Source: Thermoplasmata archaeon (GTDB lineage Archaea; Thermoplasmatota; Thermoplasmata; RBG-16-68-12). From it: a stretch of 30,413 nucleotides of DNA. The position numbers and the translations under genes are program-made. The stretch lies in the NCBI GenBank assembly GCA_033852515.1, contig JAWOML010000001.1, forward strand, positions 1 through 30,413, given 5' to 3'. This document shows positions 4,082 through 24,221 of the stretch, in pieces (position 1 is the first letter of the stretch; each line of letters opens with the position of its first letter). Below the pieces are notes generated by a model. That model was not told the origin of the DNA and made no database searches. It saw only the letters and a program-made list of their open reading frames with translations.

Positions 4082-4083
4082 AC

Positions 4084-5470: not shown

Positions 5471-5488
5471 GTGCGGGTCGGCCAGAAC

Positions 5489-5495
5489 CTTTATG
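5489..5495 (+). promoter_or_regulatory. TATA-like box of the second GS gene
   Basis: CTTTATG preceded by purine-rich CAGAAC, about 45 nt upstream of ATG 5537; SD GGGAGG at 5525-5530. Confidence 0.5.
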
Positions 5496-5536
5496 GACCG
5501 CACCCCCATCGCGCGTCGAAAACCGGGAGGATGGGG

Positions 5537-8304: not shown

Positions 8305-9600
8305 TCAGATGCGGAGGACCTCCGAGTAGCCCTCCATGTCCATGAACCCGTGGCCGCTGACGTTGAAGGCGATCACCTTCTCTTCGCGGCTCTCCTTGCA
8401 CTTCACGGCCTCGTCCATGGCGCACGCGATGCTGTACGCGCTCTCGGGCGCGGGGAGGAAGCCTTCCGTCTGGACGAACGTCCGCGCGCGTTCGAAGACG
8501 TGCCGCTCGTCCGCGGGGTACGCGACCGTGTCCAGGTAGCCCAGGTGCCGCAGGAACGAGAGGATGGGCGCGGCACCGTGGTACCGCAGGCCGTCCCCGC
8601 GGATCGGATGCATCTCCGCATGGTGGCCCAGGGTGTACATCTTCAGGAGCGGCGTGATCTCCGCGTGGTCCGCGAAGTCGTAGCGGTATTCCCCCTGGAG
8701 GTTGGGCGCCACCTCGCTCTGGGCCGCGATGAACCGGATCGTCTTGCCGTGGATCGCATCGGCGAAGAAGGGCAGGGTGAAGCCGCCGAAGTTGGAGCCG
8801 CCCCCGAGGCAAGACACCATGACGTCGGGGTACTCGCCGAAGCGCTCGAACTGCCGTTGGGTCTCCAGGCCGATGACGGTCTGGTGGAGGAGCACGTGGT
8901 TGAGCACGGATCCCAGGCAGTAGATCGCCCGGTCGTCCTCCCGCGCATCCTCGAGGCCCTCGGACACCGCGATGCCCAGGGAACCCGGGTGCTGGGGATT
9001 GTCCTTCAGGAGCTCGCGTCCCGTGGCCGTGTGGTTGCTCGGGGAGGCGTAGACCTCGGCGCCGTACAGCTTCATGAACGCGCGGCGCTGGGCCTTCCAG
9101 TCGTGGACCGCGCGCACCCAGTAGATCGTCGTCTTCAGCCCGGCGAGGCTCGCGGCGTACGCCAGGGCGGTTCCCCACTGCCCCGCGCCCGTCTCCGTCG
9201 TGAGGCGCTCGTAGCCCTCCTTCCGTGCGTAGTACGCTTGGGCGAGGGCCGTATTCACCTTGTGGCTGCCCGTGGGGCTGTAGAACTCCGCCTTGTAGTA
9301 CAGGTGGGCGGGCGTCCCCAGCTTCTGCTCGAGCCTCCGCGCGCGGATCAGGGGCCGCGGGCGACCCGCCTGGAGGTACAGCTCCTGGACCTCTTCGGGG
9401 ATGTCGACCCATCGCTCCGTGGAGTTCTCCTGGCGGAGGCACTCGCCCAGGAGGAGCTCGGGGAGGGCTTGGATCCGAGACGGTCCTTCCTCAGGATCCC
9501 GGGGCGGAGGCAGCGGCTCCGGAAGGTCGGCTCGGATGTTGTACCACTTCGTGGGACGATCGTCCTCGGGCAGCGTCACGACGAGAGAACCCGCATGCAT
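8305..9600 (-). CDS. trpB2: TrpB2-type tryptophan synthase beta-like PLP enzyme
   Basis: PTKWYNI, GSHKVNTA (PLP Lys), TETGAGQWG, LGSVLNHV, GGGSNFGG, GLRYHG, PAPES, FNVSGHG. Confidence 0.92.
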   Translation of the reverse strand: MHAGSLVVTLPEDDRPTKWYNIRADLPEPLPPPRDPEEGPSRIQALPELLLGECLRQENSTERWVDIPEEVQELYLQAGRPRPLIRARRLEQKLGTPAHLYYKAEFYSPTGSHKVNTALAQAYYARKEGYERLTTETGAGQWGTALAYAASLAGLKTTIYWVRAVHDWKAQRRAFMKLYGAEVYASPSNHTATGRELLKDNPQHPGSLGIAVSEGLEDAREDDRAIYCLGSVLNHVLLHQTVIGLETQRQFERFGEYPDVMVSCLGGGSNFGGFTLPFFADAIHGKTIRFIAAQSEVAPNLQGEYRYDFADHAEITPLLKMYTLGHHAEMHPIRGDGLRYHGAAPILSFLRHLGYLDTVAYPADERHVFERARTFVQTEGFLPAPESAYSIACAMDEAVKCKESREEKVIAFNVSGHGFMDMEGYSEVLRI

Positions 9601-9708
9601 CCTCGCAACCCCGCGGCCGCGACCGGGGGCCCGTATGGGTGGCGGGACCTTTATTGTTTCTTTATGTACAACGCGGGAATCTGCGGACCAAGGTCCGACA
9701 ACGCACGG

Positions 9709-11589
9709 TCAAAGGACCACGCCGACGGCCTGCGCGATTTCGACCCCGCCCGGCGGCAGGGCGCGGACGATCTCTTCGATAGGCACCTCGAACGCCGCCG
9801 CGAGCTGCTTCGCCACGCGCTCCCGGTCTTCCTTCCCCGGGTGGAGGACCACGTACTTCGTGGACCGCACGGCCACCGCGGAGACGGGGCCCCCCAGGAT
9901 CTTCCGGTGGCCCTCGACCTGCGCCTCGCCCACGGCCATCCGCACCGGGAGGTCGTGGACATAGTTCCGCTTGCCGCGGATCACGAATGCGCCTCGAGGC
10001 AGGAACTCCCCGGACTCCGCTTGCTTGGAGACTTGCTCGGGGAGGACCCAGTACGCGCTCCCGCTCGCGAGCCCCGCGGACCACGCCTTGCTGTACACGA
10101 GCGCGAACTCGCACGCCTCGCGCAACGTCGCCTCGCCCGCCTTGGAGCCTTCCTTGACCACGGTGGACGGGGCGCCATGAAGATCCGCGTGGGCGTAGCG
10201 GTCCCCTTCCTTCAGGTGCTTCTTCACGAGCTGGTCGTTCGTGCGGGCGTCTCGGCCGCCGAGGATCAGGAAGTTCTCGGAGGACAGGGTCCAGCGGTAG
10301 GCATCGAACCAGAGCGCCTTCGTGCCCTTGACCCGGGGCCGCTTGGCCACCTTGACGGCCTTCTTCCGTGCCGCCTGCATCTCCTGCCGGGTGGCTTCCA
10401 TCGCCTCCTGGACCCGCTGGAGCTTGAGCTGGGCCTCCCGCCGCCGCTCGTAGAGGGCCTGGGCGTTCGCGGTCACGTCCTGCTCGTACGACAGGACGAG
10501 TGCGTCGAAGTCCGCGATGGCCACGGTGACCGTGCGCTCCTTGCGGTCCACGGCCTTGACCTGGGCGTTCTCCGGGGGATCCTTCCCCTCCCCGATTGCC
10601 TTGAGGAGTTCGTCGAAGACCGCGTAGTGACCGTACAGGAAGAGGGCCTGTGCCTCGAGCCGCACGATTTCCTCGCGAAGCCCCTTCAGCGTCTCCTCCT
10701 GCTGGGCGATGCGTCGCTCGAATTTCGCCGCAATCTCGTCCACCTGGGCCGCGGCGGGCTCCGCGACATGCAGGTAGTGCGAGAGGGCCGCGTTGAATGT
10801 GGGGAACTCCTCTCGCTGGGCACCCCCGTGCTGCACGAGGTCGATGGGCGTCGCGTCCACCGCGAGGCCGTCTTTCGAGACCACGGCGGGGCGCCGCTCC
10901 TGGTCGATCGCCACGACCACATTGTTGAGCGCGGTGTACAGCGCGTCGAGCTGGGCGTCCGTGAGGTCCTTGACCTTGGCGTCCTTGCCGACCTCCGCTC
11001 GGAGGCACAGCTCCTCCGCATACTGGCCGCCGAGGTTCAGGATGCTCGCAAGGACGCGGACCACCTGACCCTTGGCCCCGCGGATCGTGACGCCGAAACC
11101 GGCACGGTCCAGCTCCAGGGGGTCCACGCCCGCGGGCGGGAACGCGTACGGCTCGTCGGGTTTCACGGCGCGGTCCTTGTACGTCTGCGGCGTGAGACAG
11201 GCCAGGGTCGTGTCCCCTCGAAGCACAACGAGGTTGCCCTTGCCGAAGAGCTCGAAGATGACTCGAAGCGTCTCGCCGCTGTGCTCTACGGTGAACACGG
11301 CGATCCGGTCAAAGCCCCGCTGCTCGACCCCGGTGATCCGCGCGTTGTCGAGGAGCCGCCGCAGGGTCTGCGCGAAGGCCGGCGGCGCGTCGGGTTTGTC
11401 CTCTACGTCATGGAGGCACAGCCACGTCCCCGACTTGGAATAGAGCTCGACCCGGTCCCGCCCAGGGACGTTGACGCGGAAGATGACCTCGTCCTCCCGC
11501 TGGTACGCTTTGTCCAGGTATCCGCCGACCAAGTCCTGCCACTCGGCCACGAGGGCGCGGAGGTCGAAGGACGAGAGCGCGGTCTTCAT
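9709..11589 (-). CDS. rqcH: Archaeal Rqc2/RqcH (NFACT family) ribosome quality-control protein
   Basis: MKTALSSFDL start, GFDRI (DR motif), ELFGKGN, GGQYAEE, HADLHGA, YWVLPEQVSK...GEFLPRGAFVIRGKRNY. TATA-like TCAAGTAA about 25-30 nt upstream of ATG 11589. Confidence 0.92.
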   Translation of the reverse strand: MKTALSSFDLRALVAEWQDLVGGYLDKAYQREDEVIFRVNVPGRDRVELYSKSGTWLCLHDVEDKPDAPPAFAQTLRRLLDNARITGVEQRGFDRIAVFTVEHSGETLRVIFELFGKGNLVVLRGDTTLACLTPQTYKDRAVKPDEPYAFPPAGVDPLELDRAGFGVTIRGAKGQVVRVLASILNLGGQYAEELCLRAEVGKDAKVKDLTDAQLDALYTALNNVVVAIDQERRPAVVSKDGLAVDATPIDLVQHGGAQREEFPTFNAALSHYLHVAEPAAAQVDEIAAKFERRIAQQEETLKGLREEIVRLEAQALFLYGHYAVFDELLKAIGEGKDPPENAQVKAVDRKERTVTVAIADFDALVLSYEQDVTANAQALYERRREAQLKLQRVQEAMEATRQEMQAARKKAVKVAKRPRVKGTKALWFDAYRWTLSSENFLILGGRDARTNDQLVKKHLKEGDRYAHADLHGAPSTVVKEGSKAGEATLREACEFALVYSKAWSAGLASGSAYWVLPEQVSKQAESGEFLPRGAFVIRGKRNYVHDLPVRMAVGEAQVEGHRKILGGPVSAVAVRSTKYVVLHPGKEDRERVAKQLAAAFEVPIEEIVRALPPGGVEIAQAVGVVL

Positions 11590-11635
11590 GACGTCCGTCC
11601 AAGGACCGTGCGTTACTTGAGTGTTCCGCCCGGGG

Positions 11636-12151
11636 TCACCACCGCTCCCAGTGGAGGACGTCATTGAGGGGCAGCCGCTGGGGCGGAGGAGGGTTCTCCG
11701 CGGGCCATCCTACGGCGACGAGCGCGACGGGGCGGGCGTACCCCGGGATCCCCAGCATCGTGCGGACCCTCTCCTCGTCGAAGGAGCCCATCCACACGGC
11801 GCCGAGCCCGCTGTCGTGGGCGGCGAGCAGAAAGTTCTGGGTGGCCGCCGCGGCATCCTGCACCGCGAACAGCTCCCGGCCCCGCGCGCCGTACTTTCCG
11901 ATCCGGCTCGCGTTCGTGCAGACCACGAGGACGGCGGGCGCCTGTTCGATCTCGACTTGGTTCGCCGCACGCGCGAGGGCGCGGCGCGTCTCCGGGTCGC
12001 GCACCAGGATGAAGTCACGAGCCTGCAGGTTCCCTGCGGACGGGGCCCAGTTGGCCAGGTCCACGAGTTGGCGGAGCAGGTTCTCGGGCACGGGCTCCGG
12101 CGTGAAGGCGCGGACGCTCCGTCGGGACCGAATGAGAGAGGCAAAGCGCAT
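11636..12151 (-). CDS. Nitroreductase-family flavoprotein
   Basis: IRSRRSVRAF, APSAGNLQ, AAAATQNFLLAA...GLGAVWMG, VAVGWP. ATG 12151 preferred. Confidence 0.92.
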   Translation of the reverse strand: MRFASLIRSRRSVRAFTPEPVPENLLRQLVDLANWAPSAGNLQARDFILVRDPETRRALARAANQVEIEQAPAVLVVCTNASRIGKYGARGRELFAVQDAAAATQNFLLAAHDSGLGAVWMGSFDEERVRTMLGIPGYARPVALVAVGWPAENPPPPQRLPLNDVLHWERW

Positions 12152-13607: not shown

Positions 13608-14909
13608 GTGGTCTCTGAACCGCTACGGAATCGTCTAGTACGCGCGGGGGCTCACCTCGGGCCTACGCAGTCCGTCCCGACGTCCCCCTTCGACCGCAAC
13701 GTGTACATGCTCACGGTCGGCTCGGGCGTGCGGTTCTTCGGAATCTCCCTGATCGCGCCGTTCTTTCTGGTCTACCTGCACGCGTCCTACGGGGTGGACA
13801 CTCTGTTCCTCGGCGTGCTCTACGCGGCCGCTGCGGCGACGGCAATCCCCGTGGGCGCGTTCGGAGGGCTCCTCGCCGACCGTTTCGGCCGCAAGCGAAT
13901 CATCCTGATTGCATTCGTGGGCGAGTGTGCCACTGCGGGATTCCTGGCCGTGACCTCCTACCTGTCGTCGGTTCCGGGGATGGTGGTCGCGTACCTCGTC
14001 ATCTCCCCGGCATTCAGCCTGAGCGGTCCCGCGACCTCCGCGTACGTCGCGGATGTCACGACGGGGGCGCAGCGGACGCGGGGATACAGCCTCCTCCGGA
14101 TTGCCTACAATGCCGGGTTCGCCGCGGGCACCGCGGTCGGCGGCTTCCTTCTCTCCTTCTTGGCGTTCCCCGACGTGATCCTCATGACCACGCTGGTCCT
14201 CGTCGTCGTCACGGGCGCCTTCTTCCTGTGGCTCGCGGCGTCTCCCTACGACCGAGCGCCGACGCCGGACCGCCCACGCCGTCCGACCGCCTCCGTCCGG
14301 ACGAGCTTTCGCCTCCTGGCCCGGGACCGTGTGTTCCTCGAGGTCTGTATCGCCTTCACGCTCGCTTGGCTGCTCTTCGGTCAGTATCAGATTGCGCTCC
14401 CGCTGTTCGCGAACGAGACCATGGGCATCCCGTACGGCATCCTGGGGATTGGGTTCTCCATTAATGGGCTCATGGTCGTCTTCGGCCAGATGCCGATAAC
14501 GCGGGCCATGCAGGGGAAGCGGCACACAACGATCGGCGTCTACGGCCTCCTGGCCTACGCGGTGTCGTTCGTCACGCTGGGCCTCGCGGCCTCCTTCCGG
14601 TTCCTCCCCATCATTTCCTTCCTCGCCGCGACGACCGTGATGATCGTGGGCGAGAACCTCATCTCGATTCCCATGACGACCTTGCCGTCCAACATGGCGC
14701 CGCCGACGGACATCGGCTTCTACAACGGCGCCTTCCAGACCGTGACGGCATTCGGCCCTGTCGCCGCCGGGCTCCTCGGGGGCGCGGTCCTGAACGGCGT
14801 TGCGAACCCGCTCCTGGTGTGGCTCATCCTCGCCCTTCCTGCGGTGCCTGCCATCCTCATGCTGTCGTGGGCCGCGCGCCGCATCAATGCCGCCGCGAAC
14901 CGGGCGTAG
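13608..14909 (+). CDS. MFS transporter (start uncertain)
   Basis: Motif A GGLLADRFGRKR, about 12 TM segments, AYVADV, NAGFAAG. Confidence 0.9.
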   Translation: MVSEPLRNRLVRAGAHLGPTQSVPTSPFDRNVYMLTVGSGVRFFGISLIAPFFLVYLHASYGVDTLFLGVLYAAAAATAIPVGAFGGLLADRFGRKRIILIAFVGECATAGFLAVTSYLSSVPGMVVAYLVISPAFSLSGPATSAYVADVTTGAQRTRGYSLLRIAYNAGFAAGTAVGGFLLSFLAFPDVILMTTLVLVVVTGAFFLWLAASPYDRAPTPDRPRRPTASVRTSFRLLARDRVFLEVCIAFTLAWLLFGQYQIALPLFANETMGIPYGILGIGFSINGLMVVFGQMPITRAMQGKRHTTIGVYGLLAYAVSFVTLGLAASFRFLPIISFLAATTVMIVGENLISIPMTTLPSNMAPPTDIGFYNGAFQTVTAFGPVAAGLLGGAVLNGVANPLLVWLILALPAVPAILMLSWAARRINAAANRA

Positions 14910-14917
14910 GGCACGCC

Positions 14918-15760
14918 TCAGCGGACGACTTCCTCGACCTCGCGGTACCAGGGCTTCGCCGTGCCCACCTTGGCTCGTTTCTCCCAGTGCCGCCCCTTGG
15001 GCACGGACCGTAGCGCCGCCTCGAGCGCCCCGATGCGGGCCTCGATTCGAGAAGCCTGGTCCGGCTTCACCTTGCTCTCGGCGACGAAGGTGCCGAGGAG
15101 CTGGCGGACCTTGGCTAGGTTCTGGGTGGCCTCGTACCAGAAGCCCCAGTCATCGGCCAGGAGGTTCGCGATATACCCCGCGTCCACGGCTTCCTTCTCC
15201 GTGCTCGCGGAGGGCTTCACCTCGTGGCCGAAGAAGAGAATCATGAGGTCGACGAGGTCCTTCCGCGCGATCTTGTGGATCTGGAGCTTCTCAAGCACGA
15301 TGTCCGAGAGGGTAATCGTCGGATAGTCCATCTCCAGCCGGCCGTCGCCGGGTTTCCTGCCGAATTCCACGTCGTGGCTGAACTCGAGCTTGTCCAGGAA
15401 GATGTCCACGTGGAACTTGCCGCCTCCCTCGTAGTAGATGAGCCGGCGGTCCCCGAAGAAACCGTTGACCATGTTGTCCGGCTTGAAGCCGAGCTTGTCG
15501 AACACACCGCTGATGGCCCGGCCTTGCTTCGCGTAGCCCATTAGGTCGAGGTCCGTGAAAAGCGGCGTCCCTGCGCTCACGCGGCCTAGGGCGTGGAACA
15601 GGGCGACCGCTTCAGGGAAGTGGGCCGAATGAGCGTAGATCGCGAGGGATCCGAGGATCCGCAGCGAGGTCCCTTCGGCCTGCGCCGCGCGCACGATCGT
15701 CTCGGCCTCCTTGAGGAACTCCTGGTCCGACAGGGCGACGAAGGATGGCTGGTGAGCCAT
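14918..15760 (-). CDS. Pol-beta-superfamily nucleotidyltransferase-like protein, copy 1
   Basis: LRILGS...DLDL...HVDIF (GS, DxD and third Asp). C-terminal DWGFWY and WEKRAKVGTAKPWYREVEEV. Clear paralog of 22476-23261. BRE/TATA-like GAGACAAG-CTTATAG on the minus strand at 15862-15848. Confidence 0.75.
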   Translation of the reverse strand: MAHQPSFVALSDQEFLKEAETIVRAAQAEGTSLRILGSLAIYAHSAHFPEAVALFHALGRVSAGTPLFTDLDLMGYAKQGRAISGVFDKLGFKPDNMVNGFFGDRRLIYYEGGGKFHVDIFLDKLEFSHDVEFGRKPGDGRLEMDYPTITLSDIVLEKLQIHKIARKDLVDLMILFFGHEVKPSASTEKEAVDAGYIANLLADDWGFWYEATQNLAKVRQLLGTFVAESKVKPDQASRIEARIGALEAALRSVPKGRHWEKRAKVGTAKPWYREVEEVVR

Positions 15761-16016
15761 CGTGTGGTTCGATGAAGGTCCGCTCTCCAACGTTACCCCT
15801 CGCCCGGATGCGTAGGCCCGCGACCCGGGGGCTACCTGATTCTTCTCCTATAAGCTTGTCTCCATCGGAAGCGGCGGAGTGCCGCCTCGGCGCGGCATCC
15901 TCGATAGTTTGAAACGTGCCCCGCGGATTCCTGTCACGGGGAATTGAGGGAGGGGGAATACGGCAGGATCAGACGTCGACGTCTTTGCTAGACGAAGTGA
16001 GCCAACGGTCTCAGGG

Positions 16017-17630
16017 GTGCAGGTGTTCACGCGGCGGGCTTCGGGGCTCGTCCGGGTGATGTCGCCGTACTCGGCGTTCGCGTACAACATCCTGAACATT
16101 GGGGTCATCTTTCCGTGGGTGTACATCGGGACCATTTTCCTATACCCCGATGCGAGCGTCTGGGGCGGAATCGTCATCTGCGGTATCTTCACCGCGTTCC
16201 TCGCGGTGGTATACGCAGGCCTCGCGTCCGCCATGCCGCGTACCGGAGGCGACTACGTGTTCCAGAGTCGGACGTTACGACCCTGGTTCGGTTTCGCCAC
16301 CGTGGCGATGATGATCATCACGTTCTTCATGCAATGGCAGGCGCTGGCTGGGTGGCTCACGTCCATCTTAGGCATGTATCCCTTGATCACGGGTTTGGGC
16401 GTGACCATGAACAACGCGACCCTCATCTCATGGGGCGCGTGGTTCGCGACCCCGTGGGGCATCACGATCACCTCCTGGGTCTTCTCCACAATCGCGGCGC
16501 TCGTGTTGATCAAGAGCTTCCGCTGGTTCGTCCAAATCCAATGGGTCATGTGGTACGGCTTCCTGCTGAGCTTCGGCCTCATGGTCATCCTGTTCTTCCT
16601 AACCCCCACCACGACGTTCATCGCCCGGTACGACCACGCGGCCCAGTTGATCAACAACGCCGCGCCGGGCGCCTACCAGGGCGTCCTTCCTGCCGCCATC
16701 GCGACAGGTTTCTCCCCGGCCACGACGATCACGTTCGCGAGCACGCTGCTCGTGGTCCCGGTGGCCCTCACGAGCCTGGGCTGGGTCGGATACGCGCAGG
16801 AGCAGGCCGGTGAGATCCAGGGCGCTCAGAGCCTCCGCAACCAGATGTTCATCAACTTCGGTGGCGGCATCGTGAGCATGGTCATGATGGCCGTCCTCGC
16901 GTACGCGATGCTGGCGACCGTGGACCAGAACTGGCTTGCGGCCTCCGTCTACTTGGGCAACGCGGCACCCATTCTCCCCTGGTTCAGTACGCTGGCGATG
17001 ATGCTCACGGACAACCCGATCATCCTGTTCCTCATGATCATCGGGATTCTGCTCAACGCGATCCAGATCGTCTTCAACGTGATTGTCGGCTGGACCCGCG
17101 TCGCCGTAGCCATGTCCATCGACGGAGTGCTTCCCAAGATTGTGAGCCAGGTGAGCCCGCGGACCCACACGCCCGTGTTTGCGCACGTGATCTTCCTGAT
17201 CCTGGGCGGGTACGTGTTCTCCGCGGTCTACAACCTCGTGCCGGGTTACGTGACCTACACGTTGGCCGTCACCGCCGTGGCGACCGTGATGTACATCGGG
17301 ACGGCGGTCGGCGGCGCCGTGTTCCCCTGGACGCGGAAGGAGGTCTACCGGACGGCACCCATCTCGAAGTACAAGATTGGCCCCATCCCGCTGATCACGA
17401 TCTGCGGGGTCATCGCGGCAGTCTTCAGCGCGTGGATGCTGTACGACTTCCTCGCCTATCCGTTCCTGGTCGGGATCGACTGGACCAAGGGGGTCAGCGG
17501 GAACTCGTTCCTGATCGCGGTCGTCGCGATCTTCGCCTTCTGGGTCGCCTACTACTTCATCCGCCGGGCGTACCTGAAGCGGATCGGGATCGACCTGGAT
17601 CTCGCGTACAAGGAGGTCCCGCCGATCTAG
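16017..17630 (+). CDS. APC-superfamily amino acid/polyamine permease, copy 1 (possible earlier start at ACG 15960)
   Basis: VFTRRASGLVR, AMPRTGGDYVF, GYAQEQAGEI, RVAVAMSIDGVLPK..S.VSPRTHTP, C-terminal LAYKEVPPI; about 12 TM. Confidence 0.9.
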   Translation: MQVFTRRASGLVRVMSPYSAFAYNILNIGVIFPWVYIGTIFLYPDASVWGGIVICGIFTAFLAVVYAGLASAMPRTGGDYVFQSRTLRPWFGFATVAMMIITFFMQWQALAGWLTSILGMYPLITGLGVTMNNATLISWGAWFATPWGITITSWVFSTIAALVLIKSFRWFVQIQWVMWYGFLLSFGLMVILFFLTPTTTFIARYDHAAQLINNAAPGAYQGVLPAAIATGFSPATTITFASTLLVVPVALTSLGWVGYAQEQAGEIQGAQSLRNQMFINFGGGIVSMVMMAVLAYAMLATVDQNWLAASVYLGNAAPILPWFSTLAMMLTDNPIILFLMIIGILLNAIQIVFNVIVGWTRVAVAMSIDGVLPKIVSQVSPRTHTPVFAHVIFLILGGYVFSAVYNLVPGYVTYTLAVTAVATVMYIGTAVGGAVFPWTRKEVYRTAPISKYKIGPIPLITICGVIAAVFSAWMLYDFLAYPFLVGIDWTKGVSGNSFLIAVVAIFAFWVAYYFIRRAYLKRIGIDLDLAYKEVPPI

Positions 17631-17651
17631 GGGCCACGAGGGACCACTCAC

Positions 17652-17675
17652 GGGCGGGTCGGACTCGGCCCGCCC
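17652..17675. terminator. 9-bp GC hairpin between the convergent permease and phosphoesterase genes
   Basis: GGGCGGGTC-GGACTC-GGCCCGCCC. No clear U-tract, so function is uncertain. Confidence 0.35.
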
Positions 17676-17678
17676 CTC

Positions 17679-18662
17679 TTAGCCCGATGTGAACTGGTAG
17701 CTCAGTACCTTGTCTCGCTCCAGGTTGATGATCACGCCCCGGAGCGTGCCCGAGGTGTACTCGGACCCCGGGTCCACGAGGACGCTCTTCTTGATCTTCG
17801 TCGCGTTCTTCGTCTCGTGGATGTGCCCGTGGAGGCCTAGGAGGGGCTGGTGCTCCTCGATTGCCTGGCGAACCGAAGTGCTCCCGACGGGGATGAGGAC
17901 CTGCTGGCCACCCTGGGTCACGGGTCGCGGTGGATCCTTGGTCGCGTCCAGCTTGGGCGCGATGTCGAGCCCCGTCTCATACGGAGGCACGTGCATGAGG
18001 TAGATCGCGTGCGCGGGGTCCTCGACCTTGTTGAGCAGCGGGCTCAGGCGCCTCGCGAGTTCGTCCTCCTCGAGCTCCCGCGGGGTCTTCCAGGGCGAGG
18101 GATTGGTCCACCCGAAGCCGAGGAGCTCGTGGTCCTCGTCGAACCGGACGACCTGCTCATCCACGTAGTGGACGTGGGGCGTGGACATCGCCTTCGCCAG
18201 GGCCTCCGCCTTGTCGTCGTTGCCGCCGATCCAGTACAGGGGGATGCCCAAGGGCGCGAGGTGCTTCTCGGCCATCTCCGTCCAGCGGTGGATTTCGTCG
18301 ATCATCCGCTCGGTGAAGAGTTCCTCGACCCTCTTGGGGTTCGCCCGCAGCGCGTCGTACTCCTCCTGGGTCAGGCGGACGGGGTAGGGCCCCGAGTTCG
18401 CGATGTCCTGCTCGATGGGACCCAGCTGGGCCTCGGTGAGGTGTTCGCGCAGCTGGCCCGAGAGCCGCGTGGAGTAGGTCCCGTCCTTCTGCTTCACGAT
18501 GGGGGTAATCGTCTTCGCGGTGAGGTCCCCGCCCATCATCAGGGCGTCTACGTCGTAGAACTTCGCGGCTCCGAGGAACTTGCGGAAGGTGATCTCCGAG
18601 CCGTGGATGTCCACGGCGAGGAAGATACGCTTGAATTTCCTCTTCGATGAGCCGAAGGGCAT
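17679..18662 (-). CDS. Calcineurin-like metallophosphoesterase (Icc-related type), copy 1
   Basis: DIHGS, GGDL, GGNDD, MHVPP, LHGHIHE. Paralog of 23265-24221. ATG 18662 preferred. Confidence 0.9.
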   Translation of the reverse strand: MPFGSSKRKFKRIFLAVDIHGSEITFRKFLGAAKFYDVDALMMGGDLTAKTITPIVKQKDGTYSTRLSGQLREHLTEAQLGPIEQDIANSGPYPVRLTQEEYDALRANPKRVEELFTERMIDEIHRWTEMAEKHLAPLGIPLYWIGGNDDKAEALAKAMSTPHVHYVDEQVVRFDEDHELLGFGWTNPSPWKTPRELEEDELARRLSPLLNKVEDPAHAIYLMHVPPYETGLDIAPKLDATKDPPRPVTQGGQQVLIPVGSTSVRQAIEEHQPLLGLHGHIHETKNATKIKKSVLVDPGSEYTSGTLRGVIINLERDKVLSYQFTSG

Positions 18663-18738
18663 CGGGTCAAAGGGGGGACGCAAGCGAACCGCTTAGCCTT
18701 TTGGGCCTGCCTCCGGTGGCGACGACAGACCATCCGAT

Positions 18739-19572
18739 CTACCGTCGGCGGGCGGCTCTCGTTCTCCGACCCTGTGGCCGCCTTCCCGCGGGCGGCCGGA
18801 CGCTCATCCGGGCATCCGTTCGTAGGTGGTTGTACGGGCTCGGGTGCTGGGCTTCGGCCATCTCGGTAAACGGAATCTCGAGGACCCGGGTCTCTTCGTC
18901 GGGGCCCAACGTAGCCACCATCCCCCAGGGGCCCGACAGGCAGGACTGACCGGGGAAGAACGCTCCCCGCTCCCGCCCCGTCCGATTGGCAACGGTCACG
19001 CAAATGCCGTTCGCGTAGGCGCTCGCCAGGGCGAGGAACGCGTGGGGTTCTAGCCCATGGCTGGGCCCGTGGGCGTCCCGCGCCCATGCGGTCGGTGCGA
19101 GGATGAGCTCTGCCCCCTTTCGCGCCAAGAACGTGGCGAGTTCGGGGAACTGCAGGTCGTAGCAGACCTCAATCCCGATCTTCCGACCCTCAAACTCGAT
19201 GAGGCAGGGCCGGCGTCCCTCCTCGAACAGGAGCTTTTCCCGGCTCCACAGGTGGATCTTCCGATACACGCTGGTGCCATCCGGACCGACGGCATATGCG
19301 GCATTGTGGAATCGGCCGCCAGCCTGTTCCGCGAACCCCCCGACGATGAGCTTCCCGGTTCGCGCGCTGAGTTTCTCCAGGGGCTCGAGCGCGTCCGGCG
19401 TGTCGGTGTATGGGGCGATCTCCTTGGAATTCTCGTACATGTAGCCGCAGCTCGAGAGCTCCGGGAACAGCACGATGTCCGCGGGGCTCCGCTCGGCCCA
19501 AGCTCGGATCCGTTTCCAGTTCTCCTCGCGCCCCGGGAAGGCCGGTGCGAACTGGACCACCTCGAGCCTCAC
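18739..19572 (-). CDS. Carbon-nitrogen hydrolase (nitrilase superfamily amidase)
   Basis: Catalytic triad motifs LFPEL, YRKIHL, VCYDLQFPE; ANRTG.E. Confidence 0.92.
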   Translation of the reverse strand: MRLEVVQFAPAFPGREENWKRIRAWAERSPADIVLFPELSSCGYMYENSKEIAPYTDTPDALEPLEKLSARTGKLIVGGFAEQAGGRFHNAAYAVGPDGTSVYRKIHLWSREKLLFEEGRRPCLIEFEGRKIGIEVCYDLQFPELATFLARKGAELILAPTAWARDAHGPSHGLEPHAFLALASAYANGICVTVANRTGRERGAFFPGQSCLSGPWGMVATLGPDEETRVLEIPFTEMAEAQHPSPYNHLRTDARMSVRPPAGRRPQGRRTRAARRR

Positions 19573-19628
19573 GTCGCGGCAGAACGGATCACGCCGAGAT
19601 GAAGCTTCGGGCCCCCGATCATTGTCTC

Positions 19629-19650
19629 ATTCGTCGACAAGTCGACGAAT
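19629..19650. promoter_or_regulatory. Perfect 10-2-10 inverted repeat, candidate operator in the amidase/permease divergon
   Basis: ATTCGTCGAC-AA-GTCGACGAAT, upstream of TATA-like TTTAGGTA and AAGATATA. Confidence 0.5.
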
Positions 19651-19839
19651 CGAGCAGGGTGCGTTTAGGTAACCCGAAAGCAAGATATACCGACCACCGC
19701 CGTGACCGGCCCGTGGGCGGGGGAGGTCGCACTGCACCACATTCACCTCAGCGACCGCTCCGCGCGGTGAGGGGGGCGCTCCGAACTCGGAGGCTGTCCG
19801 CCCTCGACCCGGGGAAGGACTTGTGCTTGGGGGAAGGCT

Positions 19840-21501
19840 ATGGCTGCTGAAACGGTCACGGAAGAGAAGACCGTCTTCGCGCGGAAGACGAGTGGGCTCG
19901 TCAAGGAACTCGGAGCGTTCGACTCGTTCTCCATCAATCTGATCTCGCTGGGACCGGGACCCGCCTTCGCGCTGTTCCTGACCATCATGGTCTTCGTCCC
20001 CGGCGTGAACCTGCTGTGGGCCACGCTGGCCGCGGCCCTTGTGGGCGTACCCGTGGTCGCGAGCTACGCAATCATGGCCATCGAACTTCCGCGCTCCGGC
20101 GGGGAGTACGTCTATCCGTCGCGCCTCCTCCATCCGTACTTCGGCATCGTCTCCGGCGTCGCGCGAATGACCAACGTGGTCGTGTACGCCGCCGTGCTCC
20201 CCTTCTGGTTCTCCACGCTCGTCGTGGGACCCGGGCTGGCGAGCTGGGGTGCGCTGGCCAACAACTCGGGCTTCTTCGACCTCGGCAACTCGCTCACGCT
20301 GTTCAGCCCGACGCAGAACAACCTGTCCATCGTCATCATCGGCGAGATCGCGACCTTCGTCCTCATGGCCCTCTACGTCGTAATGAAGCCGCGGCTCGCG
20401 TTCAACCTGTTTTCGGCCCTTCTCATTCTGGAGCTCATCGGGCTCGTCCTGTCCCTCGTGCTCCTCCTCGGCATTGGCCACACCGGGTTCGTGAACGCGG
20501 TCAACAGCTACATGGGCGGCCAGGGCTACACGGGTAACTACTACCAGGACACCTCCGCATACGGCGCATCCCAGTTCGGGACATACGGCTCCGTCCTCGG
20601 GAACACGCTGATCTTCATCCCCCTGGTGTTCGCGTTCTACTACATGTTCACGACGGCGCCGAACTACATCGCGGGCGAGTTCCAGCGTTCCTCGCGGAGC
20701 ATCCGTCTCGGCATGACGGCGTCCTACATCCTGTCCATCGTCTTCGCGGCGGCCATCGTGCTGACCTTCGAGCAGGTCGTGGGCATGGACTTCCTGAACG
20801 GATCCGTCTGGACGTCCCTCTACTTCGCTCCTGGGAACACGGGACCGACCCCAATGCCCTTCGCGCCCGGGCTCGTATCGATTCCCATGATGGCGGCCGG
20901 CGGCAACAACGTGGTCTTGGCGCTCATCTTCCTCGGCGGGGCGTCCTGGTACCTCCTCTGGATGATCCTGGGTTTCTACATTTTCTCCCGCTACGCCCTG
21001 AGTTTCAGCCTGGACCGGATGTTCCCGAAGGCCCTCAGCGCCGTGAGCCGACGGACCCATTCCCCGTGGGCGGGCATCGTCGTCCTTTCTGTGATTGGCG
21101 CGATTCTCCTGCCCCTGGTGGCCTATGACTACTCGACCGTCTACGACCCGCTGATCTACCTCCTCTTCTTCCTCCCCATGATCACGGTAAGCCTGACGTC
21201 GCTCTCCCTCGTGCGCCTGGGGATGCAGAAGCACAAGGCTTCGTATGCTGCCGTGGGCGTGATTTCGTTCCTGGCTACCGCCGTGTCCGCGTACCTGGTG
21301 TCCACCCTGCCCCTCTTGGGGGCCGCCGCATCCGCCGGGGTCGTAAAGGGGTTCACCCTCTCGAACCAGGTCACGAGCTACGTGGCCATCCTGGGCATCC
21401 TGATCGGGAGCGCGATCTGGTACTTCGTGGCCCGGGCATACAGCCTGCGGCGCCACGGTGTGGACGTGGCCATGGCGTTCAAGCAGCTGCCGCCGGACTG
21501 A
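19840..21501 (+). CDS. APC-superfamily amino acid/polyamine permease, copy 2
   Basis: VFARKTSGLVKE, ELPRSGGEYVY, NYIAGEF, SRYALSFSLDRMFPK..S.VSRRTHSP, C-terminal MAFKQLPPD. Confidence 0.9.
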   Translation: MAAETVTEEKTVFARKTSGLVKELGAFDSFSINLISLGPGPAFALFLTIMVFVPGVNLLWATLAAALVGVPVVASYAIMAIELPRSGGEYVYPSRLLHPYFGIVSGVARMTNVVVYAAVLPFWFSTLVVGPGLASWGALANNSGFFDLGNSLTLFSPTQNNLSIVIIGEIATFVLMALYVVMKPRLAFNLFSALLILELIGLVLSLVLLLGIGHTGFVNAVNSYMGGQGYTGNYYQDTSAYGASQFGTYGSVLGNTLIFIPLVFAFYYMFTTAPNYIAGEFQRSSRSIRLGMTASYILSIVFAAAIVLTFEQVVGMDFLNGSVWTSLYFAPGNTGPTPMPFAPGLVSIPMMAAGGNNVVLALIFLGGASWYLLWMILGFYIFSRYALSFSLDRMFPKALSAVSRRTHSPWAGIVVLSVIGAILLPLVAYDYSTVYDPLIYLLFFLPMITVSLTSLSLVRLGMQKHKASYAAVGVISFLATAVSAYLVSTLPLLGAAASAGVVKGFTLSNQVTSYVAILGILIGSAIWYFVARAYSLRRHGVDVAMAFKQLPPD

Positions 21502-21523
21502 GCCCGCCGGAGGAAGTCGGACC

Positions 21524-22474
21524 GTGACCGAGCCGCTCGACGCCGCAGGCTCCCCGCGATTCGCGCAGGTTGCCACGTACGGGCGGCTCCCCTTGACGCA
21601 GGACCTTTCCCATGCCGAAAGTGCCTTCGTGGGCATCCCGTGGGACGACGCGACGAGCTACCGGAGCGGCGCACGCGAGGGGCCTTCTGCGATTCGGACC
21701 GCGTCCCGTCTCGTCCGCCCGTACAACATGTTCGCGGACGTGTATCCGTTCCGCATCCTGGACACCGTCGACTGGGGCGACGTGGACCCGGTCCCCGGAT
21801 ACACGGAGGACACGTTCGAACGAATCCAGAAAGCCCTCACACCCATGTTCGGGGCCGGAATCGTCCCGTTCATTGCCGGCGGCGACCACTCGATCACGCT
21901 CCCCATCCTCCGGTCCCGCAGGGCCGGCGCCAAGGAGCCCGCGAGCCTCATCCATTTCGACGCGCACTTCGATACCTGGGAATCGTACTGGGGAACCAAG
22001 CGGTACACGCACGGCACCTGGGTGAAGCGCGCCTACGAGGAGGGACTCATCTCCAAGGGCCACGTGTTCCAGGTGGGGATTCGCAGTTCCCTGTACCACC
22101 ACGAGGATGTCCCGAACAACGCCGCCATCGTGGACCGGACGTTCACGTCGGAGGACGTGGACTCCCAGGGCTACGCCGCGATCATGGACCACATCGTCCG
22201 CGCCATCGGCGACGCGCCCGCGTACGTCTCCGTGGACATCGATGTCCTGGATCCCGCCTTCGCGCCGGGGACGGGGACGCCGGAGTCGGGCGGCCTGACC
22301 TCCCGCGAAATGATTCACTTCGTCCGGGACCTGAAGCGCCTCAACGTGATCGGCTTCGACGTGGTCGAGGTGGCACCCCAATACGACCATACGGGTCAGG
22401 TGACCGCCCTCGCCGCCTCCAACCTCCTCTACGAGGCCATGTGCGCGGTCGCGGTCCGTCGAAGCAAGAAGTAG
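21524..22474 (+). CDS. speB: Agmatinase-family ureohydrolase
   Basis: SGAREGPSAIR, GGDHS, HFDAHFD, THGT, SVDIDVLDPAFAPGTGTP, FDVVEVAP. GTG 21524 with SD GGAGG at 21509-21513. Family is secure; exact substrate is not. Confidence 0.85.
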   Translation: MTEPLDAAGSPRFAQVATYGRLPLTQDLSHAESAFVGIPWDDATSYRSGAREGPSAIRTASRLVRPYNMFADVYPFRILDTVDWGDVDPVPGYTEDTFERIQKALTPMFGAGIVPFIAGGDHSITLPILRSRRAGAKEPASLIHFDAHFDTWESYWGTKRYTHGTWVKRAYEEGLISKGHVFQVGIRSSLYHHEDVPNNAAIVDRTFTSEDVDSQGYAAIMDHIVRAIGDAPAYVSVDIDVLDPAFAPGTGTPESGGLTSREMIHFVRDLKRLNVIGFDVVEVAPQYDHTGQVTALAASNLLYEAMCAVAVRRSKK

Positions 22475-22475
22475 C

Positions 22476-23261
22476 CTAGCGGACCTCGTCCACTTCCTCG
22501 TACCACGGGAGCGCCGTCCCCTTCGCGCTGCGCTTCTCCCACCGCCGGCTCTTCGGCAGGCCGGCGAGGAAGGCCCGGTAGTGGGCGAGTCGGTCCCCGG
22601 CCCGCGCGAGCGCGGGCACGAGGTCCCCCTCCGCCGTGGCGGCGAGCTGCGGCAGCATCTCCTGGGCCTTGCGAAGGTTCTGATCCACGTCGTACCACAG
22701 GCCCCAGTCGTTGCCCAGCAGGTCGGTCAGATACTCGCGGTCCAATCGGTCTAGGGGTACCGCGCACACGAAGGCGGCGAGATCGATCCAGTCCCTGGGC
22801 GTGGACTTGTGGATCTGGGCCTTGGCAAGGAACAGGTCCTCGGGCGCCAGGGTCATCCCTGGAGGGAGCCGGCCCTTGATCGGGATTTCGTGGCTGAAAC
22901 GGAGGGTGTCGTAGAACACATCGATGTCGAAGTGCGGGTGGTAGTAGATGTTGCGGTACATGCCGAAGAGGCTGTTCGTCTCCGTGTCCTCTCGGTAGCC
23001 GAGCTCCCGCACGAAGAGCTTGTAGATGTCGTGGGACTTCTTCTCGAGGCTCGCCAGGTCCAGGTCCTTGAACCGCGGCTCGCCGTCCCCGTCCCCGTTC
23101 CGGCGGCGGTAGAGGGCCCGGGCGAGCGGATCGCCGCGGACGTGGTAGTACAGCCCCACGCTCCCACACATCCGGAGCGGAATCCCGCGCTCCGACGCAC
23201 GCGCGAGCAGCTGCTCGACCTCCGAGAGGAACTGGTTCTCGGGGAGGCGGACGTCGGCCAT
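22476..23261 (-). CDS. Pol-beta-superfamily nucleotidyltransferase-like protein, copy 2
   Basis: LRMCGS...DLDL...DIDVF; DWGLWY; WEKRSAKGTALPWYEEVDEV. Lies 3 nt downstream of phosphoesterase copy 2. Confidence 0.75.
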   Translation of the reverse strand: MADVRLPENQFLSEVEQLLARASERGIPLRMCGSVGLYYHVRGDPLARALYRRRNGDGDGEPRFKDLDLASLEKKSHDIYKLFVRELGYREDTETNSLFGMYRNIYYHPHFDIDVFYDTLRFSHEIPIKGRLPPGMTLAPEDLFLAKAQIHKSTPRDWIDLAAFVCAVPLDRLDREYLTDLLGNDWGLWYDVDQNLRKAQEMLPQLAATAEGDLVPALARAGDRLAHYRAFLAGLPKSRRWEKRSAKGTALPWYEEVDEVR

Positions 23262-23264
23262 GGC

Positions 23265-24221
23265 CTACCCCGTGACGAAGAGGTGGGCGGCCACGTCGGG
23301 CCCGTCCAGGTCGATCAGGAGGCCTTGCAGGTTGCCGCTGAAGTAGGCGCTCCCGGGGTTGTACACGCGCGTGCCCGCGACCTCGTCGATCCCTTTGGAC
23401 TCGTGGATGTGGCCATGGAGCCCGACCGCGGGGCGGAGGGACTCGATGAGCTGCCGCACGGACGTTGAGCCGACGTGGTCGAGGAGGATCTCGCCGCGGA
23501 CCGTCTTGGGACGGAAGTCCTCGTCCAGCTGGGGTGCGAGATCCAGGCTCGTGTCCTTGGGCGGCGCGTGGATGTCCAGGATCGTCTGTCGCGGGTTGTC
23601 GATTTGGGTGGACGTCTTGTCGAGGAACTTCTGGAGTTCGGGCTCCTCAAGGTCCCGCGGACAGTGCCACGGCGTCATGTTGGCGTAGCCACAGCCAAAG
23701 ATTTCGTAAGGCCCGGCGCGGACGACCTGACCTTCCGGGATGAGGAGGTTCGGAGGCGCCTCCGCCTTCAGGATCTGGAGTACGTCGTCCGTGTCGTCGT
23801 TCCCGACGTTCATCACGATGGGGATGCCGGTGGGCGTGAGGCGTTCCTGGACGAGCCGAATCCACGTGCGGACGCGCTCGTGGGCGAGCTGCATGAAGAG
23901 CGCGTTCATGGCATCAGGGTTGCCGCTCATCCGCCGCCATTCCTCGGGCGTCATGATCGCGGAGTAGCGCCCCTGGTCCGCGATGGCGCGCCGGACCTTG
24001 GGAAGTTCCTCCTTCTGAATGTGGGCTGGCGTCCGATCGTGCGGGAACCAGCGGTACCCGTTACCGTCCTCGGGGAAGATAGGGACGAGCATCTTGCCCA
24101 TGATGTCCCCCCCGTAGACCAACAGGTCCGGATGGTAGACCGCGGTCGAATTGAGGAACTTGCGGAAGCAGACCTCGGACCCGTGGAGGTCGCTGACGAA
24201 GAGGATCCGATAGCGACCCAC
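23265..24221 (-). CDS. Calcineurin-like metallophosphoesterase, copy 2
   Basis: DLHGS, GGDI, VGNDD, IHAPP, LHGHIHE. GTG 24221 lies about 25 nt from TATA-like GCTATATT (24251-24244), consistent with a leaderless start. Confidence 0.9.
   Translation of the reverse strand: MGRYRILFVSDLHGSEVCFRKFLNSTAVYHPDLLVYGGDIMGKMLVPIFPEDGNGYRWFPHDRTPAHIQKEELPKVRRAIADQGRYSAIMTPEEWRRMSGNPDAMNALFMQLAHERVRTWIRLVQERLTPTGIPIVMNVGNDDTDDVLQILKAEAPPNLLIPEGQVVRAGPYEIFGCGYANMTPWHCPRDLEEPELQKFLDKTSTQIDNPRQTILDIHAPPKDTSLDLAPQLDEDFRPKTVRGEILLDHVGSTSVRQLIESLRPAVGLHGHIHESKGIDEVAGTRVYNPGSAYFSGNLQGLLIDLDGPDVAAHLFVTG

What the first reader, a model, noticed from the sequence alone, without database searches (positions are those of the whole stretch)
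14918..24221. Duplicated nucleotidyltransferase + phosphoesterase + APC permease module: candidate undescribed system
The same three gene types occur twice. Module 1: NTase 14918-15760, permease 16017-17630, phosphoesterase 17679-18662. Module 2: permease 19840-21501, NTase 22476-23261, phosphoesterase 23265-24221. Both NTases keep GS, DxD and a third Asp and share a distinctive DWGxWY...WEKR..GT..PWYxEVxEV tail. Both esterases keep the metal motifs and share HGSE..FRKFL and PW..PR.LEE.EL. The copies are well diverged yet intact, and the esterase-to-NTase order on the minus strand is preserved. An NMP-adding and an NMP-removing enzyme beside an importer suggests a writer/eraser cycle or an activate-then-hydrolyse catabolic route for an imported amine or amino-acid derivative, with two specificities. 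I know no characterised pathway with this composition, and no toxin or effector genes suggest defence.
Basis: partly seen in the sequence, partly recalled or inferred. Interest (0 to 1): 0.85.

Follow-up and report, generated by a model that had tools for sequence, protein, structure and literature searches.

The report
Permease with two dedicated accessory enzymes
This archaeal DNA carries two old, diverged copies of an uncharacterised three-gene unit (a membrane importer, a nucleotide-adding enzyme and a metal-dependent phosphoesterase) that is kept together in hundreds of archaeal and bacterial species and is probably an undescribed way of controlling or assisting the uptake of small nitrogen compounds.

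Summary
Both modules are intact. The paired proteins are 37% (NTase-like X), 37% (metallophosphoesterase, MPE) and 23% (APC permease) identical. They are deep paralogues, not a recent duplication. X has no curated family model, but its predicted fold is a Pol-beta nucleotidyltransferase, closest to ANT(2'')-Ia, MenT1 and LnuA, with all catalytic motifs. MPE keeps every metal ligand. The trio is a real unit. Of 36 species-representative loci with enough flank, 31 have all three genes within 6 kb, despite 15 different gene orders and varying neighbours from nitrogen-compound catabolism. In 41 Thermoplasmata genomes the three families occur in the same 5 genomes and in none of the other 36. New here: the permeases form a subfamily marked by an N-terminal R-[KR]-x-[ST]-G-L-V-[RK] segment and a C-terminal E-[IL]-P-P end. 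A complex prediction gave weak support (0.53, best control 0.00) for MPE docking on exactly these cytoplasmic elements. My best reading, at about 35%, is that X adds and MPE removes a nucleotide at the permease to switch transport. No paper or database names the unit. This scan has noted the same trio before on other DNA (32 notes, at least 29 genomes), always with function unknown.

The parts
14918..15760 (-). X1: Pol-beta-type nucleotidyltransferase-like protein, module 1 (280 aa)
   Evidence: 37% identical to X2. It aligns with the family and keeps G-S, DxD, the third Asp and the C-terminal W/R motifs. Profile match in the own genome has E 3e-94.
16017..17630 (+). Permease 1: trio-type APC permease (537 aa)
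   Evidence: PF13520 scores 43 bits against a cut-off of 27. It carries the subfamily N-terminal motif and the C-terminal ...KEVPP end. Profile E 4e-146.
17679..18662 (-). MPE1: calcineurin-like metallophosphoesterase with GNDD and a ~95-aa insertion, module 1
   Evidence: 37% identical to MPE2. All metal-ligand columns are kept. Profile E 2e-126.
18739..19572 (-). Carbon-nitrogen hydrolase (nitrilase superfamily); a recurrent neighbour of the module 2 lineage
   Evidence: PF00795 E 5e-34. The same family neighbours the orthologous trios in L001, L002, L011 and L012.
19840..21501 (+). Permease 2: trio-type APC permease (553 aa)
   Evidence: PF13520 scores 36 bits against a cut-off of 27. It is 61-64% identical to Thermoplasmata orthologues and has the N-motif and the ...KQLPPD end. 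Used in the complex prediction.
21458..22474 (+). Agmatinase-family ureohydrolase. The start may lie some tens of bases downstream, because the frame overlaps the end of permease 2.
   Evidence: PF00491 E 1e-87. TIGR01230 agmatinase scores 218 bits against a cut-off of 174. The same gene lies next to the orthologous trios.
22476..23261 (-). X2: Pol-beta-type nucleotidyltransferase-like protein, module 2 (261 aa)
   Evidence: AlphaFold2 model has pLDDT 93. VIA-align Z is 12.2 to ANT(2'')-Ia, 10.8 to MenT1 and 10.7 to LnuA. Invariant residues are G33, D66, D68 and D114.
23265..24221 (-). MPE2: calcineurin-like metallophosphoesterase, module 2 (318 aa)
   Evidence: PF00149 scores 24.2 bits against a cut-off of 21.5. 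Model pLDDT 95. Closest structures are aq_1956 (2yvt), TT1561 (1uf3) and MPPED2. Invariant residues are D11, H13, D39, N141, H218, H271 and H273.
13608..14909 (+). MFS transporter flanking module 1; a neighbour, not shown to belong to the unit
   Evidence: PF07690 E 6e-36.

Best explanation
The region holds two anciently diverged copies of a conserved three-part uptake unit: a special APC-type permease for small nitrogen compounds and two dedicated cytoplasmic enzymes. Shown: the three genes are inherited together across Archaea and Bacteria, X has a nucleotidyltransferase fold with an intact active site, and MPE has an intact two-metal phosphoesterase site. Weakly supported: MPE docks on the cytoplasmic face of the permease, using the N-terminal R-[KR]-x-[ST]-G-L-V-[RK] segment, two cytoplasmic loops and the C-terminal E-[IL]-P-P end, which mark this permease subfamily. 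Inferred: X transfers a nucleotide monophosphate (AMP or UMP) to a hydroxyl at this interface. The most likely acceptor is the always-present Ser/Thr of the permease N-terminal segment. The diesterase-type MPE (GNDD motif) then removes the nucleotide. Transport would thus be switched on or off covalently according to the cell's nitrogen or energy state. Module 2 probably imports agmatine or a related guanidino amine, because it sits with an agmatinase-family enzyme and a C-N hydrolase. The cargo of module 1 is unknown.
For: Co-occurrence: of 36 species-representative loci with at least 6 kb on both sides of X, 33 have MPE and 31 have the permease within 6 kb. In 41 Thermoplasmata genomes X, the trio-type MPE and the trio-type permease occur in the same 5 genomes and in none of the other 36. 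The link survives 15 different order and strand patterns. The next commonest neighbour family is present in only 20 of 89 loci. Pairwise distances of the three proteins correlate: Mantel r is 0.86 for MPE-permease, 0.69 for X-MPE and 0.62 for X-permease, each p = 0.001. Fold and active sites. Constant role: X and MPE have median pairwise identity of 37% and 39%, against 23% for the permease, and the neighbouring catabolic genes differ widely (arginase/CN-hydrolase, hydantoinase, MR_MLE, class-III aminotransferase/AFOR, formamidase, GS-like, ADH/ALDH). Docking: complex prediction of permease 2 with MPE2 gave 'weak support', score 0.53 with best control 0.00. That mark was reached by 58 of 80 solved complexes and 2 of 110 mismatched pairs. 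At 0.60 or under, however, it was reached by only 7 of those 80 and by both mismatches that passed, and my own alignments were used, so the counts hold only roughly. The interface uses only cytoplasmic segments of a 12-TM topology. It contains 11 of the 21 conserved permease columns, where 1.4 are expected (p = 4e-9). The C-terminal end motif is in 60 of 61 trio permeases and 0 of 30 ordinary APC loci; the N motif is in 58 of 61 and 2 of 30. The N-motif residue is Ser in 47 and Thr in 11 of the 58 permeases aligned at this position (3 of 61 have a gap there). Regulatory company of X relatives outside the trio: a wHTH-X fusion, an orphan X behind a double-wHTH gene and a CBS pair, and an X-domain protein in a GAF-kinase/Roadblock cluster.
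Against: Nothing shows what X modifies. Its closest solved relatives nucleotidylate small molecules (ANT(2'')-Ia, LnuA) or tRNA (MenT1), not membrane proteins. X is the partner least often adjacent to the permease (12 of 58, against 39 for MPE-permease). The complex score lies in the band where passes are more often wrong than right unless the guess was likely beforehand. Two of the four interface segments (PRSGG..SR and DR..P) are general APC motifs and may be conserved for transport itself. On the MPE side the interface is not enriched in conserved residues (p = 0.13). The conserved Ser/Thr could be purely structural. Membrane proteins often diverge faster than soluble ones, so the identity contrast is only suggestive.
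Confidence: 0.35

Rival explanations
1. Substrate-directed chemistry. X O-nucleotidylates the imported compound as it leaves the permease, as ANT(2'')-Ia and LnuA do with amino-sugar antibiotics. MPE later cleaves the phosphodiester. The effect would be metabolic trapping (a kind of group translocation) or transient protection of a reactive amine.
For: The closest structural relatives of X act on small cationic molecules. GNDD-type MPEs are diesterases by established knowledge of YfcE and MJ0936. The trio always sits with catabolic genes for small nitrogen compounds. An MPE active site facing the cytoplasmic mouth of the permease (interface includes H273 and E274) would also fit processing of cargo.
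Against: The neighbouring pathways imply chemically unrelated cargoes, some with no obvious hydroxyl (agmatine-like, hydantoin-like, amides). Yet X keeps 19 invariant and 15 near-invariant columns, including its whole C-terminal domain, and is more conserved than the permease. Add-then-remove on the same substrate is a futile cycle unless the two steps are separated in space. X relatives outside the trio sit with regulators, not enzymes.
Confidence: 0.25
2. Local nucleotide signal. X synthesises a small nucleotide messenger. MPE is its phosphodiesterase, as in MPPED2-, CpdA- or Rv0805-type enzymes. The permease, or MPE bound to it, is the receptor.
For: MPPED2, a cyclic-nucleotide-type metallophosphodiesterase, is among the closest MPE structures. 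CBS-domain genes, which are adenine-nucleotide sensors, accompany an orphan X, lie in L004, and were noted with the trio in an earlier finding. Synthase plus hydrolase is the standard layout of second-messenger modules.
Against: X is closest to NMP-transferring enzymes, not to cyclases or cGAS/DncV-type synthases. No receptor domain is recognisable in the permease. One synthase-hydrolase pair per permease copy (3 to 4 per genome in G040) is unusual for a diffusible signal.
Confidence: 0.12
3. A MenT/AbiEii-like toxin-antitoxin or defence pair (NTase toxin, MPE antidote) that merely happens to lie near permeases.
For: Fold similarity of X to MenT1 (Z 10.8). One weak AbiEii Pfam hit among 22 family members.
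Against: X has no PADLOC match, and the MPEs have only a weak generic one. No AbiEi/MenA-type antitoxin gene is present. Linkage to one particular permease subfamily and to catabolic operons is tight. There are no mobile-element features around the window copies.
Confidence: 0.02

Closest known systems
AmtB-GlnK-GlnD (ammonium channel, PII protein, uridylyl/adenylyl-transferase with removing activity)
   Same: A nitrogen-compound transporter whose activity is set by a Pol-beta-type nucleotidyltransferase and an opposing hydrolase. The genes are often clustered. A soluble partner docks on the cytoplasmic face.
   Different: No PII adaptor was found in the window or in the 53%-complete genome. 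The remover is a separate calcineurin-type MPE, not an HD domain fused to the transferase. The transporter is APC-fold, not Amt. The target of nucleotidylation is unknown.
ANT(2'')-Ia and LnuA (small-molecule O-nucleotidylyltransferases)
   Same: Best structural matches of X (Z 12.2 and 10.7). They share the minimal Pol-beta core plus a helical C-terminal part and the same catalytic motifs.
   Different: 12-14% identity. X1 and X2 do not reach any Pfam threshold. X has about 80 extra C-terminal residues with invariant Trp/Arg motifs. It is not in a resistance context, and its obligatory MPE and permease partners have no counterpart.
MenT1 / AbiEii (DUF1814) nucleotidyltransferase toxins
   Same: Fold (Z 10.8). 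A K-L-Q-I...K-D-L-x-D segment in X resembles, from my memory of DUF1814 motif III, its NTP-binding motif.
   Different: No antitoxin partner and no defence-model match. The genes are chromosomal and catabolic, and are linked to a permease.
aq_1956 (2yvt), TT1561 (1uf3) and MPPED2 metallophosphoesterases
   Same: Nearest solved folds of the MPE (Foldseek E 1e-11 to 4e-7), with the same metal-binding scaffold.
   Different: aq_1956 and TT1561 are themselves uncharacterised and lack the ~95-residue insertion between motifs II and III. That insertion contributes to the predicted permease interface (residues 43-47, 59, 99, 105-109).
GkApcT / CAT and AdiC (solved APC transporters)
   Same: Same superfamily and 12-TM fold (profile E 7e-24 to GkApcT 5oqt/6f34 and 1e-12 to AdiC).
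   Different: The trio permeases form their own subfamily, with the N-terminal R-[KR]-x-[ST]-G-L-V-[RK] segment and the E-[IL]-P-P end. These are absent from 30 ordinary APC loci of the same class.

Membership tests
Pol-beta nucleotidyltransferase superfamily | hG[GS] motif, [DE]x[DE] metal-binding motif and a third carboxylate on the neighbouring strand | tested here: met
   G33(-S34), D66-x-D68 and D114 are invariant in 22 diverse family members including X1 and X2.
Pol-beta nucleotidyltransferase superfamily | The alpha-beta-alpha-beta-alpha-beta core fold | tested here: met
   Model pLDDT 93. VIA-align Z is 12.2, 10.8, 10.7 and 8.5 to ANT(2'')-Ia, MenT1, LnuA and TM1012, well above unrelated rows.
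Pfam PF14907 (NTP_transf_5) / PF10706 (ANT(2'')) / PF08843 (AbiEii) | Score at or above the curated gathering threshold | tested here: not met
   X1 and X2 have no hit at E <= 0.01. Among relatives the best PF14907 score is 27 bits against a cut-off of 31.2.
AbiEii/MenT toxin-antitoxin systems | Adjacent cognate antitoxin (AbiEi/MenA-type) and a defence or TA context | tested here: not met
   The neighbours are MPE, permease and catabolic enzymes. X has no PADLOC match.
Calcineurin-like metallophosphoesterase superfamily | Motifs DxH, GD, GN[HD][DE], H and GHxH that bind two metals | tested here: met
   D11, H13, D39, N141-D142-D143, H218, H271 and H273 are invariant in 20 members. PF00149 scores 24.2 bits against a cut-off of 21.5 for MPE2. 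MPE1 is below the cut-off but is 37% identical to MPE2. The fold matches.
APC superfamily permeases (PF13520) | Score above the gathering threshold; 12-TM topology | tested here: met
   43 and 36 bits against a cut-off of 27. The hydropathy profile is consistent with 12 TM segments. Profile match to GkApcT, CAT and AdiC.
AmtB-GlnK-GlnD type control | PII adaptor protein that is the nucleotidylation target and plugs the transporter | tested here: not met
   PF00543 found no match in the own genome (53% complete) although it rings in 13 of 14 control genomes. No PII-like family appeared among the ten recurrent neighbour clusters I annotated (clusters 3-5 and 8-14; clusters 6 and 7 are CN-hydrolase and arginase; the smaller clusters were not scanned).
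Agmatinase (TIGR01230), neighbour of module 2 | Score above the equivalog cut-off | tested here: met
   218 bits against a cut-off of 174.3. Substrate specificity within ureohydrolases cannot be read from this alone.

The most novel reading that the evidence does not exclude
A secondary (APC-fold) transporter is switched by reversible covalent nucleotidylation of its own cytoplasmic N-terminal Ser/Thr. The writer is a dedicated minimal Pol-beta nucleotidyltransferase. The eraser is a metallophosphoesterase docked on the transporter's conserved termini. This would be a transporter-control principle not described so far, and it is spread across Archaea and several bacterial phyla.
Probability: 0.3. 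Interest if true: 0.9.

Novelty: categorically new. Interest (0 to 1): 0.72.

Why it matters
The X family alone has about 2,860 representative clusters in public data, and at least 575 loci in species-representative genomes from Thermoplasmata, Bathyarchaeia, Nitrososphaerota, Thermoproteota, Asgard archaea, Chloroflexota, Bacillota, Actinomycetota and Caldisericota. Yet no member of the trio has a name beyond 'metallophosphoesterase / hypothetical protein / APC family permease'. The unit is plugged into many different pathways for scavenging organic nitrogen in soil and sediment microbes. Its function therefore bears on how uncultured archaea and bacteria control uptake of amines, amides and guanidino compounds. 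If the two enzymes act on the permease, this is a new mode of transporter regulation. If they act on the cargo, it is a new kind of nucleotide-dependent group translocation. Either would be a new entry in transport biology. There are now concrete test points: the N-motif Ser/Thr, the E-[IL]-P-P end, and a cultured host (Halobellus limi).

Tried and rejected
1. Family models for X. Pfam and NCBIfam gave nothing for X1 or X2. A PDB sequence-profile search gave only chance matches. AlphaFold DB/Swiss-Prot gave no structural relative.

2. Recent duplication. Rejected. Module 2 lies in a strongly supported Thermoplasmata clade. Module 1 is a long branch placed weakly with Bathyarchaeia, and its permease is only 26-28% identical to any sampled relative.

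3. In-frame TAG (possible pyrrolysine) in X genes of two related genomes. Rejected. The TAG is the stop just upstream of the start codon.

4. X-MPE gene fusions as Rosetta-stone evidence. None found. The 570-aa protein P0383 is X plus a phosphoribosyltransferase domain, not MPE.

5. A shared operator for the two modules. GTCGAC palindromes occur at 15971-15984 and 19630-19649, and they are the only such perfect palindromes in the window. They are not conserved in orthologous loci, so they are left as a note.

6. Defence reading. No support from PADLOC.

7. Literature. Five full-text searches found no description of the trio.

9. Only the permease-MPE complex could be tested.


Full report
WHAT IS THERE. 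The window is a 30.4-kb, 66% G+C contig of an uncultured Thermoplasmata archaeon. The bin is 53% complete. The flagged stretch reads as follows:
- MFS transporter, 13608-14909 (+)
- X1, 14918-15760 (-)
- permease 1, 16017-17630 (+)
- MPE1, 17679-18662 (-)
- C-N hydrolase, 18739-19572 (-)
- permease 2, 19840-21501 (+)
- agmatinase-family ureohydrolase, 21458-22474 (+)
- X2, 22476-23261 (-)
- MPE2, 23265-24221 (-)

The paired proteins are 37% (X), 37% (MPE) and 23% (permease) identical. These are the only copies in the assembled part of the genome.

THE PARTS.
- X matches no Pfam or NCBIfam model and no solved structure by sequence. An AlphaFold2 model (pLDDT 93) is a Pol-beta nucleotidyltransferase. 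VIA-align gives Z 12.2 to ANT(2'')-Ia, 10.8 to MenT1, 10.7 to LnuA and 8.5 to TM1012.
- In 22 diverse relatives the G-S, DxD and third Asp are invariant. So are a K-x-Q...D-x-x-D segment and a C-terminal domain with Trp/Arg motifs that the solved relatives lack.
- The MPE model (pLDDT 95) is a calcineurin-like phosphoesterase. It is closest to the uncharacterised aq_1956 and TT1561 and to MPPED2. All metal ligands are invariant. Motif III reads GNDD. A roughly 95-residue insertion lies between motifs II and III.
- The permeases are distant APC members, nearest to GkApcT, CAT and AdiC.

IS THE TRIO A UNIT? Yes, on four lines of evidence.
- Breadth. A profile of X finds about 2,860 representative clusters in 1.8 billion proteins. 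At least 575 loci occur in species-representative genomes of nine phylum-level groups of Archaea and Bacteria.
- Linkage. I searched 80 of these loci with profiles of the three proteins. Of 36 loci with at least 6 kb on both sides of X, 33 have MPE and 31 have the permease within 6 kb.
- Rearrangement. I counted 15 order and strand patterns, and all three genes share a strand in only 22 of 58 trios. MPE-permease adjacency (39 of 58) and X-MPE adjacency (36) are common. X-permease adjacency is rarer (12).
- Variable neighbours. After X, MPE and permease (89, 68 and 67 of 89 loci), the next neighbour family occurs in only 20 loci. The neighbours are class-III and class-I/II aminotransferases, ABC ATPase, C-N hydrolase, arginase, formamidase, GS-like ligase and aldehyde:ferredoxin oxidoreductase. 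Elsewhere they are hydantoinase A/B, MR_MLE enzymes and ADH/ALDH.

Two further checks agree. In an even sample of 41 Thermoplasmata genomes, X, the trio-type MPE (E < 1e-110) and the trio-type permease (E < 1e-100) occur in the same five genomes and in none of the other 36. One complete 1.98-Mb genome has three full trios. Pairwise distances of the three proteins also correlate: Mantel r is 0.86, 0.69 and 0.62, each p = 0.001. Shared descent contributes to that correlation.

THE TWO WINDOW COPIES. Module 2 groups with Thermoplasmata orthologues. Identity is about 60-67% for all three proteins, and SH-aLRT support is 100. Those orthologues keep the arginase, permease and C-N hydrolase neighbours. 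Module 1 is a long branch placed weakly with a Bathyarchaeia copy. X1 is about 52% identical to its best relatives, MPE1 about 42% and permease 1 about 27%. The two modules are therefore old paralogous lineages or separate acquisitions, not a recent duplication.

NEW EVIDENCE ON HOW IT WORKS.
(i) The trio permeases are a marked subfamily. The C-terminus ends in G-[IV]-D-x6-E-[IL]-P-P in 60 of 61 permeases. The N-terminus carries [FY]-x-R-[KR]-x-[ST]-G-L-[VI]-[RK] in 58 of 61. In 30 ordinary APC loci of the same class these counts are 0 and 2. The motif residue is Ser in 47 and Thr in 11 of the 58 permeases aligned at this position (3 of 61 have a gap there).
(ii) A complex prediction of permease 2 with MPE2 returned 'weak support'. 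The score was 0.53 in three runs and the best control scored 0.00. That mark was reached by 58 of 80 solved complexes and 2 of 110 mismatched pairs. At 0.60 or under, however, it was reached by only 7 of those 80 and by both mismatches that passed. I used my own alignments, so these counts hold only roughly.
(iii) The confident interface on the permease is residues 12-24, 82-95, 391-407 and 539-553. These are the N-motif, two loops and the C-terminal end. All are cytoplasmic in a 12-TM topology. They contain 11 of the 21 conserved columns, where 1.4 are expected (p = 4e-9).
(iv) On MPE the interface includes part of the family-specific insertion (K43, P47, F109), W185 and the active-site neighbours H273 and E274. 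Overall enrichment in conserved residues is not significant there (p = 0.13).
(v) X and MPE are much more conserved across 59 trios than the permease is. Median identity is 37% and 39% against 23%. This fits a constant role better than a role that follows the cargo.
(vi) X relatives outside the trio keep regulatory company. One is fused to a winged-helix domain. An orphan X follows a double-wHTH gene and a CBS pair. A third lies in a GAF-kinase/Roadblock/Arf-like cluster.

INTERPRETATION. I put about 35% on a covalent switch. In this model X nucleotidylates a hydroxyl at the permease-MPE interface, most likely the N-motif Ser/Thr, and MPE removes the nucleotide. The nearest analogy is AmtB-GlnK-GlnD. 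However, there is no PII protein, the eraser has a different fold, and the transporter is of a different family. The rivals are cargo nucleotidylation and release (25%), a local nucleotide messenger (12%) and a toxin-antitoxin pair (2%). The remainder is 'something else'. The chemistry is inferred throughout. Only linkage, folds and active-site integrity are shown, and docking is weakly supported.

NOVELTY. RefSeq calls the Halobellus limi copies 'metallophosphoesterase', 'hypothetical protein' and 'APC family permease'. Five literature searches found nothing on the trio. This scan has met the same trio before on other DNA: 32 notes in at least 29 genomes, all with function unknown. The window copy is therefore a further instance of a unit that is undescribed in public knowledge.

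Noticed in passing
window 15971-15984 and 19630-19649: Two perfect palindromes built on GTCGAC (AGACGTCGACGTCT, and TTCGTCGA-CAAG-TCGACGAA). They are the only such perfect palindromes in the 30-kb window. They lie in the two divergent promoter regions upstream of permease 1 and between the C-N hydrolase and permease 2. They could be operators of a shared regulator, but no equivalent was found in orthologous loci.
   Followed up: partly
L131:3639-5423 (G040:C1, about 1307.6-1309.4 kb): An orphan X gene with no MPE or permease nearby. It directly follows a 323-aa protein with two AsnC-type winged-helix domains. Two CBS-pair genes lie upstream and a STAND-NTPase/TPR/HTH gene lies downstream. Similar orphan X genes occur in G018 and G020.
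   Followed up: partly
L133:3548-5547 and L134:2680-8678: X-domain proteins with extra parts. P0260 is a wHTH-X fusion followed by a second NTP_transf_5-like gene. P0323 (150 unknown residues plus X) sits between a GAF histidine kinase, a PatA_N gene, three Roadblock/LC7 genes and an Arf-like GTPase-like gene.
   Followed up: partly
L069, L076, L082, L083, L089, L093 (Anaerolineales): These Chloroflexota loci carry two diverged X genes flanking a single MPE, with the permease 2-3 kb away. L129 (G040) and L043 instead have two MPE genes per unit. The stoichiometry of the accessory genes is therefore not fixed.
   Followed up: no
L097 (Halobellus limi CGMCC 1.10331 plasmid NZ_CP031312.1, 386259-389795): A cultured haloarchaeon carries the trio next to an iron-type alcohol dehydrogenase, an aldehyde dehydrogenase and an IclR regulator. 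It is a practical host for genetics.
   Followed up: partly
window 8350-11667 (+): A 1105-codon open frame without any Pfam match. It lies opposite two well-supported minus-strand genes: a PLP-dependent enzyme (8305-9600) and an NFACT protein (9709-11664). It is most likely a high-G+C shadow frame, not a gene.
   Followed up: partly
window 2627-6874: Two glutamine-synthetase-family genes flank a 416-aa membrane protein with a weak COX1-like match, about 8 kb upstream of module 1. GS-like ligases are also recurrent neighbours of the trio elsewhere (7 of 89 loci). Whether these belong functionally with the modules was not examined.
   Followed up: no
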